Shown here piece after piece: positions 7,537 to 8,002 of a stretch of 10,606 bases of DNA. Both the position numbers and the translations under genes were made by a program. The notes under the pieces were generated by a model. The model had not been told where the DNA came from. It made no database searches and saw only the letters and a program-made list of their open reading frames with translations. Source of the DNA: a virus; UHGV virus genome UHGV-0360087; one strand, 5' to 3'. Within the stretch, counting starts at the first letter, position 1. Every line of letters starts with the position of its first letter.

Positions 7537-7914
7537 TTAGTGATTCAGGCCGTTACCGCGTCCGTCGAGAAAAACTTCTACGAGCAAATCACGGGTATAA
7601 GTGCGCTCGATGCCGCGATGCAGATAAAGCCGTCCGCGTAAATTAGCTGATGCAGTCCAGGTACCATCTTTGTGTTTGACCAGCATTCCTGGCATGACCG
7701 CGCCGCGATTAACGGTCTGTGTTCCGTAATGTTGATGAACCATAAAAACTCCTGCCCGTAAGCTGGGCTGCTGAACATATAGAGACTTCTGCGCGTATTC
7801 AGGCGGTGGATGGCCGCCGGTTGTCATAACTAAGCCGCCTCGTTGAAGCGACTGAGGTATGAAATGTTGAGTTAATTTCAGCTGGTCACACCGACGTTCA
7901 CGCGTCCGTTTCAC
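7537..7914 (-). CDS. Hypothetical protein with arginine-rich N-terminus, first ORF downstream of pL; possible N-like antiterminator or small kil-like protein
   Basis: The frame is open from TTG 7947. GTG 7914 has GGGGAG about 8 nt upstream and gives MKRTRERRCDQ... An internal ATG at 7743 has a strong AGGAG 5 nt upstream and would give a 68-aa product. The true start and the function are both unresolved. Confidence 0.35.
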   Translation of the reverse strand: MKRTRERRCDQLKLTQHFIPQSLQRGGLVMTTGGHPPPEYAQKSLYVQQPSLRAGVFMVHQHYGTQTVNRGAVMPGMLVKHKDGTWTASANLRGRLYLHRGIERTYTRDLLVEVFLDGRGNGLNH

Positions 7915-8002
7915 CCCTCGCACTCCCCGAAGCCTGCCGAAATTCAAACTGCGGATCTAAGCGGTCATCGCAACGGTGAATCAGGTAGTTGCCGTATCGT
8001 TG

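What the first reader, a model, noticed from the sequence alone, without database searches (positions are those of the whole stretch)
7537..7947. First pL-proximal ORF has an arginine-rich N-terminus but an ambiguous start
The open frame encodes RLRGVRGVKRTRERR near its 5' end, resembling the arginine-rich RNA-binding motifs of N antiterminators, and it occupies the N position. However the best internal RBS (AGGAG, 5 nt) precedes the ATG at 7743, which would give a 68-aa protein without that motif, in the position lambda uses for kil or cIII. I found no clean boxA or boxB between pL and the ORF. Either reading would be an uncharacterised early-left product.
Basis: partly seen in the sequence, partly recalled or inferred. 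Interest (0 to 1): 0.5.

Follow-up and report, generated by a model that had tools for sequence, protein, structure and literature searches.

The report
Phage kil gene with untranslated leader
The open frame is the already-annotated 68-residue phage cell-division inhibitor Kil; its "arginine-rich N-terminus" is an untranslated mRNA leader that happens to stay open in frame, and that leader holds a conserved RNA hairpin.

Summary
In detail: a 136-codon open frame on the minus strand (7537-7947), an Arg-rich stretch (7891-7935), AGGAG five bases before the ATG at 7743, and no boxA or boxB in the pL leader.

The N-like reading fails. The last 68 residues are a KilR/phi80-Kil family protein. Family profiles and all diverged homologues (66-79 aa) begin at the Met of ATG 7743. 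RefSeq annotates exactly this 68-aa protein and nothing over the upstream part.

In relatives the upstream 204 bases evolve as non-coding sequence:
- Variable sites show no third-position excess (14/9/11, against 9/11/36 in kil).
- Many haplotypes carry an in-frame TAG; others carry frameshifts.
- One contig joins the same leader to an unrelated gene.

The stretch from about 8014 to 7744 is the pL leader, conserved from the predicted transcript start across two unrelated immunity types. Part of it (7802-7862) is a cassette shared with phi80, HK639, HK225 and Enterobacter and Citrobacter prophages:
- a hairpin with strong covariation that buries an SD-like GAGG and an AUG;
- an invariant 28-nt core that opens a short ORF, MTTGGHPPP.

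It matches no Rfam family and no HK022-type put RNA. As flagged, the finding is ordinary. The cassette, and the lack of an N gene in this lineage, are the parts worth following.

The parts
7537..7743 (-). kil coding sequence: 68 aa plus stop, KilR/phi80-Kil family cell-division inhibitor
   Evidence: PHROG 294 E = 2e-38. NCBIfam NF008465 aligns residues 1-68 to model positions 1-70 of 73. BLASTP to Rac KilR gives 36% identity from M1. Diverged homologues of 66-79 aa align from their residue 1. RefSeq calls this 68-aa CDS. Variable sites by codon position are 9/11/36, with 245 synonymous against 33 non-synonymous codon differences. AlphaFold2 gives pLDDT 89.5 and a six-stranded beta domain.
7749..7753 (-). 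Shine-Dalgarno AGGAG of kil, five bases before the ATG
   Evidence: Read directly from the sequence. Anti-SD duplex is -6.9 kcal/mol. GGAG is retained in phage Turner despite a 1-nt deletion at 7753.
7744..7947 (-). In-frame open extension of 68 codons that is not coding; it is part of the pL leader
   Evidence: CAG to TAG at 7854 in 17 of 68 distinct sequences, including phage PhiR34_1. Frameshifts occur in Turner and other contigs. Variable sites by codon position are 14/9/11, with 65 synonymous, 91 non-synonymous and 8 stop differences. No family hit. PGAP annotates nothing here in the listed rows of 2238 E. coli genomes.
7891..7935 (-). Arg-rich stretch RLRGVRGVKRTRERR, read in a non-coding frame
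   Evidence: Present as described. One of two such basic 15-mers in the six-frame translation. R to W and R to C variants occur in relatives. Part of it overlaps a 27-nt block that is invariant at all three codon positions.
7744..8014 (-). 5' leader of the pL transcript, about 271 nt; the transcript start near 8014 is inferred
   Evidence: Homology between phages with two unrelated immunity regions begins at the base 7 nt after each -10 element. The leader is present at 90% identity or more in nearly all of 2238 of 5426 complete E. coli genomes. On contig L104 it is joined to a non-kil gene.
7865..8014 (-). Lineage-specific 5' part of the leader, with an invariant block at 7875-7901; function unknown
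   Evidence: Found in only 16 E. coli phage records, all at 94.6% identity or more. No variable site at 7875-7901 among 68 distinct sequences. No unusual folding energy for the whole leader (z = +0.66). No put-model match.
7824..7862 (-). Hairpin 1: conserved RNA stem-loop that pairs an SD-like GAGG (7841-7838) and the AUG at 7827
   Evidence: In 35 distinct sequences from several genera, 97.4% of cells are paired and 7 pairs change on both sides. That is 70 cells against 20.6 +/- 3.4 in shuffles (0 of 500), and slid controls pair only 29-50%. Frequent G-U pairs, such as U-G in 33 of 35 at one position, place the structure on the leftward (kil-sense) RNA.
7802..7829 (-). Invariant core GTTATGACAACCGGCGGCCATCCACCGC(C), including hairpin 2 (GGCGG-CCATCCA-CCGCC, 7802-7818)
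   Evidence: A 28-nt exact match in phi80 and HK639, and 97% over 63 nt in HK225. Exact 26-mers occur in 17 species-representative genomes and in more than 120 viral contigs.
7825..7827 (-). AUG of the short ORF MTTGGHPPP. In this window it runs in frame into kil, giving a nominal 96-aa form
   Evidence: In other phages this ORF stops after 16 or 21 codons in most cases, and 48 of 86 end in EVLY. In 6 of 48 distinct window-type cassettes it is not in frame with kil. Its start region is mostly paired (mean P(unpaired) 0.14, computed one base off the AUG).
7754..7768 (-). Small hairpin GCCC-AGCTTAC-GGGC abutting the kil SD
   Evidence: Predicted in the MFE, centroid and alignment folds. No covariation is available.
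8021..8049 (-). Predicted pL: TTGACG (8049-8044), 17 nt, TTAAAT (8026-8021), overlapped by operator-like repeats
   Evidence: Same layout as pR at 9077-9105 (TTGACT, 17 nt, TAATCT). Repeats I1, I2 and I9 link 8023-8067 with 9059-9102. This is inferred and not mapped.
8200..8217 (-). Intrinsic terminator after the cI-like repressor gene, upstream of pL
   Evidence: CCCGGTCACCGTGCCGGG followed by TTTTCTTTTG.

Best explanation
The gene is kil. It encodes a 68-residue small beta-domain protein of the KilR/phi80-Kil family, translated from ATG 7743 with AGGAG as its ribosome-binding site. It is the first gene of the leftward early operon of an N-less lambdoid prophage. By homology with Rac KilR, it blocks host cell division by disturbing FtsZ ring assembly, and at high dose the MreB system, during lytic growth or induction.

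The 204 bases upstream that stay open in frame are not translated into Kil. They belong to a leader of about 271 nt that starts at pL, with the transcript start near 8014. The Arg-rich peptide is an artefact of reading a G-rich non-coding RNA in one frame.

The leader carries a conserved cassette at 7802-7862. A hairpin buries an SD-like GAGG and an AUG. An invariant 28-nt core follows and opens a short ORF, MTTGGHPPP. I infer that this cassette controls how much of the leftward transcript is translated or extended into the toxic kil gene.

Shown here: family membership, the start codon, the non-coding evolution of the extension, and the covariation of the hairpin.
Inferred: the FtsZ target, the transcript start, and any regulatory role of the leader.
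For: Family and start:
- PHROG 294, E = 2e-38, covering residues 60-136.
- NF008465 aligns residues 69-136 to model positions 1-70.
- Rac KilR aligns M1 to M1 at 36% identity.
- In a scan of 1.84 billion representatives, every diverged full-length homologue (39-58% identity, 66-79 aa) matches query residues 69-136 from its own residues 1-3. Residues 1-68 are matched mainly by near-identical fragments of the same lineage; one 62%-identity call (P0113) also matches residues 19-57.
- The alignment with KilR, phi80 Kil and the HK639 and phiES15 homologues shares the N-terminus M-x3-HYGT.
- HK225, SEN34, Mulock, phiES15, phi80 and HK639 annotate 68-69 aa proteins with unrelated sequence upstream.
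- RefSeq calls the 68-aa form.

The extension is not coding:
- A TAG at 7854 in PhiR34_1, a phage isolated and propagated on K-12 (inferred from its host field), and in 17 of 68 distinct sequences. Turner has a 1-nt deletion, and other contigs have frameshifts.
- Codon-position pattern 14/9/11 against 9/11/36 in kil, in a set retrieved without reference to kil.
- The leader is joined to a different gene on L104.
- The TTG has no SD.

Leader and RNA element:
- Homology begins at the predicted +1 in two immunity types.
- Hairpin covariation.
- Substitutions inside the hairpin in close relatives keep pairing while changing the notional amino acids: 7835 G to A, 7850 C to T and 7848 C to T. The frequent C to T at 7854 falls on an unpaired base.

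Fold: pLDDT 89.5 for the 68 residues alone.

Function of KilR: PMC12482147 and PMC5793797.
Against: - The NF008465 score (61-63 bits) is below NCBI's curated cut-off of 92. The protein is therefore a homologue, not a member of the narrow Rac KilR subfamily, and identity to KilR is only 36%.
- No member of this particular subfamily has, to my knowledge, been tested on FtsZ.
- In this window the short ORF from ATG 7827 is in frame with kil. A 96-aa form cannot be excluded as a minor product, and one relative (L118) has ATT in place of the kil ATG.
- The transcript start and promoter are predictions.
- The whole-leader fold is no more stable than shuffles (z = +0.66).
- The 5' 150 nt have too little diversity to test for structure.
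- The regulatory role of the cassette is unproven.
Confidence: 0.87

Rival explanations
1. The full 136-codon frame, or a version from GTG 7914, is translated. It would give an N-like antiterminator whose arginine-rich motif binds the nascent leftward RNA, fused to or preceding the Kil domain.
For: - The frame is open in this window, and KRTRERR resembles the TRRRERR of lambda N (the resemblance rests on my own knowledge).
- The ORF is the first after pL.
- Complete relatives have no N gene elsewhere.
- GTG 7914 has GGGGAG eight bases upstream (anti-SD duplex -7.6 kcal/mol). Some relatives have ATG there.
Against: - The extension has no hit to any N family in Pfam or PHROGs and does not align with phi80 N.
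- There is no boxA or boxB in the leader.
- The viable phage PhiR34_1 and 17 of 68 distinct sequences carry a TAG that would cut the product to 20-31 residues.
- Frameshifts, and R to W and R to C changes, occur within the motif.
- There is no third-position bias.
- The invariant 27-nt block is conserved at all codon positions, which points to a constraint at nucleotide level.
- Diverged homologues have no counterpart of the extension.
Confidence: 0.02
2. The 96-aa form from ATG 7827, MTTGGHPPP... fused to Kil, is the real or a co-existing product in this phage.
For: - It is in frame in 42 of 48 distinct window-type cassettes.
- The ATG and the following 26 bases are invariant across genera.
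- An SD-like GAGG lies 10 nt upstream.
- Gene callers often choose this start: the 96-aa cluster P0002 has 472 members.
- One relative has ATT instead of the kil ATG.
Against: - The fusion is broken independently in Turner (-1), L154 (+1), L105 and L269 (a different linker) and L182 (a stop), while kil itself stays intact.
- In other phages the short ORF ends after 16-21 codons and is followed by unrelated genes.
- The AUG and GAGG are paired in a hairpin supported by covariation.
- Part of the linker (GCGCAGAAGTCT) is conserved as nucleotides but read in different frames in HK639 and in the window.
- Homologues start at M69.
Confidence: 0.08
3. The leader is a cis-acting antitermination RNA that replaces N and nutL in this N-less lineage, as put does in HK022. 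The open frame is irrelevant.
For: - Complete relatives have no N gene.
- The leader is conserved from the predicted +1 whatever the immunity type.
- Variable sites are fewer in the extension part of the leader (about 14% of sites) than at kil third positions (25%) or in the kil-gam spacer (38%).
- There is precedent in HK022 and HK639 (PMC9378689; the putL annotation).
Against: - A covariance model built from HK022 putL, HK022 putR and HK639 putL finds its own three sequences at 64-99 bits. It finds nothing in the window or in the PhiR34_1, Perceval and phi80 loci.
- There is no second, putR-like copy in the genome.
- The whole-leader folding energy is ordinary.
- The conserved cassette also occurs in phi80, which has N, and in HK639, which has its own put. 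It is therefore not a substitute for them.
Confidence: 0.06

Closest known systems
KilR of the E. coli K-12 Rac prophage (73 aa; NCBIfam NF008465, PHROG 294)
   Same: - Homologous over the whole length from Met1 (36% identity).
- Same size class.
- Same place in a leftward early operon, next to the recombination genes and opposite a YdaS/YdaT-type rightward operon.
- Both have a long leader before the gene. Rac has about 440 nt, containing the small RNA KilS.
- KilR is reported to inhibit FtsZ and, at high dose, MreB (PMC12482147). Its expression is held down through NusG (PMC5793797).
   Different: - The score is below the curated subfamily cut-off (61-63 against 92 bits).
- It lacks the last residues of KilR's C-terminal tail, which the abstract of PMC12482147 reports as important in a length-dependent way.
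- The leaders are not homologous.
- The repressor here is an S24 cI-type protein, not RacR.
Kil of phage phi80 (69 aa, PHI80_42)
   Same: - Same family (41% identity).
- phi80 also carries the hairpin and invariant-core cassette upstream in the leftward operon.
   Different: - phi80 has N, nutL and tL1 between pL and the cassette, and further ORFs between the cassette and kil.
- Here pL is followed by a 150-nt unique leader, and the cassette abuts kil.
Lambda Kil (47 aa)
   Same: Same genomic position, just upstream of gam, and the same reported outcome of blocked FtsZ assembly and filamentation (PMC3961180).
   Different: [quoted passage not shown] Lambda Kil acts in a ZipA-dependent manner.
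Lambda-type N antiterminators with nut sites
   Same: The ORF occupies the first position after pL and contains an Arg-rich run. A perfect boxA exists on the rightward side.
   Different: There is no homology, no nutL and no boxB. The frame is not conserved and not under coding selection.
Leader-peptide and SD-sequestering hairpin attenuators, for example the proline-codon leader mgtP of Salmonella mgtCBR (my own knowledge)
   Same: A short ORF with consecutive proline codons sits next to conserved RNA stems ahead of regulated genes. The hairpin occludes the SD and the AUG.
   Different: No experiment exists for this cassette. Its tail is not always kept in frame, and its downstream genes vary. 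The comparison concerns how it may work, not membership.

Membership tests
KilR / phi80-Kil family (PHROG 294; NCBIfam NF008465; precomputed Pfam PF27398) | Significant match to the family profiles over the whole domain | tested here: met
   PHROG 294 gives E = 2e-38. NF008465 gives E = 2e-17 over model positions 1-70 of 73. Database relatives carry PF27398.
KilR / phi80-Kil family (PHROG 294; NCBIfam NF008465; precomputed Pfam PF27398) | Score above NCBI's curated cut-off for the Rac KilR subfamily model (92 bits) | tested here: not met
   The score is 60.9-63.1 bits. The protein is a homologue outside the narrow subfamily.
KilR / phi80-Kil family (PHROG 294; NCBIfam NF008465; precomputed Pfam PF27398) | Protein of about 65-80 aa whose N-terminus aligns with Met1 of the family (M-x3-HYGT) | tested here: met
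   Conserved positions are R13, P18, G19, H24 and G63.
KilR / phi80-Kil family (PHROG 294; NCBIfam NF008465; precomputed Pfam PF27398) | Location in the early leftward operon of a lambdoid (pro)phage, near the gam and recombination genes | tested here: met
   gam lies at 7164-7460 and recT at 6253-7167. The cI-like gene lies at 8339-9094.
KilR / phi80-Kil family (PHROG 294; NCBIfam NF008465; precomputed Pfam PF27398) | Inhibits FtsZ ring formation, with toxicity relieved by extra FtsZ | not testable with these tools
   Known for Rac KilR only (PMC12482147, PMC5793797).
Lambda-type N antitermination proteins | Sequence or profile similarity to an N family | tested here: not met
   No Pfam or PHROG N hit for residues 1-68 even at E up to 10. 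No alignment to phi80 N.
Lambda-type N antitermination proteins | Arginine-rich motif at the translated N-terminus | tested here: inconclusive
   A basic run exists in the frame. However, the frame is not conserved, TTG 7947 lacks an SD, and the motif varies (R to W, R to C).
Lambda-type N antitermination proteins | Cognate nut site (boxA plus a boxB hairpin) in the pL leader and after cro | tested here: not met
   No boxA in 7744-8014 with up to 3 mismatches. There is a perfect boxA at 9376-9388, but no hairpin follows it.
Lambda-type N antitermination proteins | Intact ORF kept under purifying selection in relatives | tested here: not met
   TAG in 17 of 68 distinct sequences, frameshifts, and a 14/9/11 codon-position pattern.
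Lambda Kil (47-aa family) | Sequence similarity to lambda Kil | tested here: not met
   No Pfam family matches either half of the ORF at E up to 10.
HK022-type put antiterminator RNA | Match to a covariance model of putL and putR (two stems, conserved CGGCGCG...GUCGG...GGCGGG.UCAGGAUGA...CAAUG) | tested here: not met
   The model R1 scores its own sequences at 64-99 bits. The best window hit is 7.5 bits and lies elsewhere; nothing falls in 7744-8014. The model rests on only three sequences.
Any Rfam 15 family | Match at or near the gathering score in 7400-8400 | tested here: not met
   Only tRNA passes in the whole window. In 7400-8400 nothing scores better than E = 1.1.

The most novel reading that the evidence does not exclude
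The hairpin and MTTGGHPPP cassette (7802-7862) is an undescribed cis-regulatory RNA of enterobacterial lambdoid phages. It would be a leader-peptide or SD-sequestering switch, perhaps sensing ribosome stalling at the Pro-Pro-Pro codons or Rho access. It would gate expression of the delayed-early leftward genes.

In most phages the cassette sits right after the tL1-type terminator. In this N-less lineage it is fused to a conserved 150-nt pL leader and directly controls the toxic kil gene.
Probability: 0.3. Interest if true: 0.6.

Novelty: already known. Interest (0 to 1): 0.3.

Why it matters
For the finding as flagged, the value lies in correct annotation.

- This gene is called with at least five different starts or frames in public phage records: 68, 77, 93, 128 and 139 aa. 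A 96-aa call is common in metagenome gene sets.
- The comparative evidence fixes it at 68 aa. It also removes a tempting but false 'N-like' reading.

Two side results could matter more.

- First, a structured RNA cassette with clear covariation and an invariant 28-nt core is shared by phi80, HK639, HK225 and many Enterobacter and Citrobacter prophages. As part of this leader it is present in about 41% of complete E. coli genomes, and it is absent from Rfam.
- Second, this common lineage of lambdoid prophages has Q but no N gene and no put-type RNA, yet keeps a perfect boxA after cro. How it gets its early transcripts past Rho and terminators is therefore an open and testable question.

Tried and rejected
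- Rfam at gathering threshold on the whole window, and at E up to 10 on 7400-8400: only the tRNA.
- Fold of the whole leader: z = +0.66, no unusual stability. RNAalifold on close relatives found only wobble-compatible changes and too little diversity.
- Homology of the leader to the Rac kilR leader and its small RNA KilS: none.
- Similarity of the extension to phi80 N, Pfam or PHROGs: none. The best hit was a PHROG of unknown function at E = 0.08.
- A second copy of the leader elsewhere in the window or in the complete PhiR34_1 genome, as a putR or nutR analogue: none.
- A put covariance model built from three known put RNAs: no match. The ten-sequence put alignment in the supplement of PMC9378689 is an image and could not be used.
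- A distant search for the 150-nt 5' part of the leader: only 16 near-identical E. coli phage records, so no structure test was possible.
- Literature search for the invariant core sequence or the MTTGGHPPP peptide: nothing. The phi80 genome paper (PMC3510586) was looked up and is not held in the library. The HK639 put paper did not turn up in a literature search for HK639 and was not looked up by id.
- Foldseek of the Kil model against the PDB: no match better than E = 0.27. The best resemblances are SH3-like barrels such as the eIF5A N-domain at TM about 0.5, so no mechanistic lead.
- A possible base pair 7930-7909 suggested by linked T/C and A/G polymorphisms: rejected, because the neighbouring bases cannot pair (by inspection).
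Full report
**What is there**

The window carries the immunity and early-left region of a lambdoid prophage. Its parts, from right to left, are as follows.
- A cII-like YdaT-family gene at 9433-9972 (+).
- A cro-like YdaS-family gene at 9133-9363 (+).
- A cI-type S24 repressor at 8339-9094 (-).
- On the minus strand, leftward of the repressor: the ORF in question (7537-7947), gam (7164-7460), recT (6253-7167) and a Gp157-like gene.

The ORF exists as described: 136 codons from a TTG, with RLRGVRGVKRTRERR at 7891-7935. An internal ATG lies at 7743, preceded by AGGAG and five T.

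**Promoter and leader**

After the repressor gene comes an intrinsic terminator at 8217-8200. The predicted pL follows: TTGACG, 17 nt, TTAAAT at 8049-8021. It is built like pR at 9077-9105 and is overlapped by the same AACAAC/GTTGTT repeats.

Phages with an unrelated immunity region, such as Perceval, become homologous to the window exactly 7 nt after their own -10 element. That point corresponds to window position 8014. I therefore place the transcript start near 8014. TTG 7947 is then at +68, ATG 7827 at +188 and ATG 7743 at +272.

**The C-terminal 68 residues are Kil**

- PHROG 294 ('Kil protein for bacterial septation inhibition') matches residues 60-136 at E = 2e-38.
- NCBIfam NF008465 (FtsZ inhibitor protein, the Rac KilR model) aligns residues 69-136 to model positions 1-70 of 73. 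The score of 61-63 bits is below the curated 92.
- BLASTP to K-12 KilR gives 36% identity from Met1 to Met1.
- tblastn against phages finds 146 records. These include HK225, SEN34 and Klebsiella phages at 80-85%, phi80 at 41% and HK639 at 38%. Most matches begin at query residue 1; a few, including phi80, begin at residue 5.
- In the six of those records examined (HK225, SEN34, Mulock, phiES15, phi80, HK639) the gene is annotated at 68-69 aa, with unrelated sequence upstream.
- A full HMMER scan of 1.84 billion representatives with the 136-aa query found 71 proteins. Every diverged full-length relative (39-58% identity, 66-79 aa) aligns query residues 69-136 to its own residues 1-68. Residues 1-68 are matched mainly by near-identical fragments from the same lineage, plus one 62%-identity call over residues 19-57.
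- RefSeq annotates the 68-aa protein WP_000233576.1, 'phage encoded cell division inhibitor protein'. It annotates nothing over the leader.
- AlphaFold2 folds the 68 residues on their own into a confident six-stranded beta domain (pLDDT 89.5). No solved relative was found.

**The upstream 204 bases are not coding**

In the five-phage alignment, two changes break the long frame while kil stays intact.
- PhiR34_1 has CAG to TAG at 7854. It is a complete phage isolated and grown on K-12 (inferred from its host field) and has the same immunity region.
- Turner has a 1-nt deletion at 7753 that shifts the frame.

Among 83 loci retrieved through Kil there were 47 distinct 270-nt leaders. The commonest carries the TAG. 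Others are open for only 18, 41, 49 or 67 codons.

A second set was retrieved with a 27-nt leader bait, so it was not selected on kil. It gave the following.
- kil has variable sites 9/11/36 by codon position, with 245 synonymous against 33 non-synonymous codon differences.
- The extension has 14/9/11, with 65 synonymous, 91 non-synonymous and 8 stop differences, and three alleles with deletions.

On contig L104 the leader is joined, just before the kil ribosome-binding site, to an unrelated gene. TTG 7947 has no SD. The extension matches no N family, and there is no boxA or boxB in the leader.

A stop-free run of 68 codons has a chance of about 0.04-0.05. A comparably basic 15-mer also occurs in an off-frame elsewhere in the window.

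Annotators disagree widely: 128, 139, 77 and 93 aa in four phage records. Two of these are in a wrong frame.

**What the leader contains**

The extension part of the leader varies less than neutral proxies. About 14% of its sites vary, against 25% of kil third positions and 38% of the kil-gam spacer. It contains an invariant block at 7875-7901.

A core of about 63 nt (7864-7802) is shared with HK225 (97%), phi80 (84%, 28 nt exact) and HK639 (85%, 28 nt exact). It is also found in Enterobacter, Klebsiella and Salmonella phages.

Exact 26-mers occur in 17 species-representative genomes (Enterobacter, Citrobacter, Scandinavium, Huaxiibacter) and in more than 120 viral contigs.

The core consists of two parts.
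- Hairpin 1 (7862-7824) is the first part.
- The invariant GTTATGACAACCGGCGGCCATCCACCG follows. It includes a second small hairpin and opens a short ORF, MTTGGHPPP.

Evidence for hairpin 1, from 35 distinct sequences:
- 97.4% of cells are paired.
- 7 pairs change on both sides, amounting to 70 cells against 20.6 +/- 3.4 in shuffles (0 of 500).
- Slid controls pair only 29-50%.

The stem interior varies freely. The base (CAUA with UAUG) and the top (UUC with GAG) are fixed, so an SD-like GAGG and the AUG are both paired. Abundant G-U pairs assign the structure to the leftward RNA.

In close relatives, substitutions inside the hairpin keep pairing while changing the notional residues. The frequent TAG-creating change falls on an unpaired base.

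In 82 of 86 distinct non-window contexts the cassette directly follows a T-run of an intrinsic terminator. In phi80 that terminator is tL1A, after gene N. The cassette precedes varied genes. The short ORF is mostly 16 or 21 codons long, and 48 of 86 end in EVLY.

In window-type phages the short ORF runs in frame into kil. That fusion is broken in 6 of 48 distinct cassettes.

**Mechanism**

The following is shown here.
- The gene is a KilR-family protein that starts at 7743.
- The upstream frame is a non-coding leader.
- The leader contains a selected RNA hairpin.

The following is inferred from KilR work (PMC12482147, PMC5793797).
- The protein blocks Z-ring formation, and at high dose MreB organisation.
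- It is toxic, so its expression needs tight control. In Rac this control involves NusG.

The following is hypothesis.
- The cassette and the long untranslated leader set how much transcription or translation reaches kil.
- This could act through occlusion of the SD and AUG, through the proline-rich short ORF, or through Rho access.

**N-less lineage**

The complete relatives PhiR34_1 and Perceval have Q but no N gene. A covariance model of HK022 putL, HK022 putR and HK639 putL finds nothing in the window or in those relatives. The leader has no second copy in the genome.

A perfect boxA (CGCTCTTTAACAA, 9376-9388) sits between the cro-like and cII-like genes, without a boxB. How early transcription is kept processive here is unknown.

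**Verdict**

The flagged ambiguity resolves to an ordinary, already annotated gene. The arginine-rich motif is a reading-frame artefact. What remains of interest is the conserved leader cassette and the absence of any recognisable early antitermination device.

Noticed in passing
window 9376-9388 (+): A perfect 13-of-13 boxA consensus, CGCTCTTTAACAA, lies between the cro-like (YdaS family) and cII-like (YdaT family) genes, in the nutR position. No boxB-like hairpin follows it. The complete relatives PhiR34_1 and Perceval have no N gene.
   Followed up: partly
window 7802-7862 (-); also L009:1289-1348 (phi80), L010:1027-1073 (HK639), L006:1362-1424 (HK225): A conserved RNA cassette consists of a hairpin with strong covariation and an invariant 28-nt core that opens the short ORF MTTGGHPPP. 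It is shared across enterobacterial lambdoid phages, usually directly after an intrinsic terminator. It matches no Rfam family.
   Followed up: yes
window 1356-4114: tRNA-Arg(CCT) at 2675-2749 (-) is flanked by two tyrosine-integrase ORFs, 1356-2549 (-) and 2924-4114 (+). This suggests two elements integrated in tandem at an argW-type site.
   Followed up: no
window 7578-7778 (-): A 66-aa ORF in another frame overlaps kil. In PhiR34_1 and Turner the equivalent, lengthened by a TAG to TGG change, is what the records annotate as a CDS in place of kil. This is probably a gene-calling error.
   Followed up: partly
window 7875-7901 (-): The 27-nt block GTGAACGTCGGTGTGACCAGCTGAAAT has no variable site among 68 distinct relatives. 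About a quarter of kil third positions vary in the same set. No function could be assigned.
   Followed up: partly
window 8023-8067 and 9059-9102: pL and pR share the same promoter and operator layout, GTTGTTGAC-N-AAAACAAC-ATAGTTTTAA, with AACAAC/GTTGTT inverted repeats. These are presumably the binding sites of the cI-type repressor.
   Followed up: partly
window 7494-7511 (-): A weak terminator-like hairpin, GCCTGGCATTTCGCGGGC followed by GATATTTTCA, lies between kil and gam. It has only five pairs and may be chance.
   Followed up: no
window 6253-7167 (-): This prophage has a RecT-family annealing protein and a Gp157-like gene where its closest relatives (Turner, PhiR34_1, Perceval) have Bet and Exo. 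The module boundary lies just left of gam.
   Followed up: no
L092:2906-3003 (E. coli K-12 Rac): RefSeq annotates a small RNA, KilS, within the long leader of Rac kilR. The architecture is analogous to the long leader here, but the sequences are not homologous.
   Followed up: partly
window 10416-10520: Three short matches of 10-11 nt to leader positions 28-38 recur at a spacing of about 48 nt, on the strand opposite to the leader. They look like iterons of the replication origin, and the similarity to the leader is probably chance.
   Followed up: no
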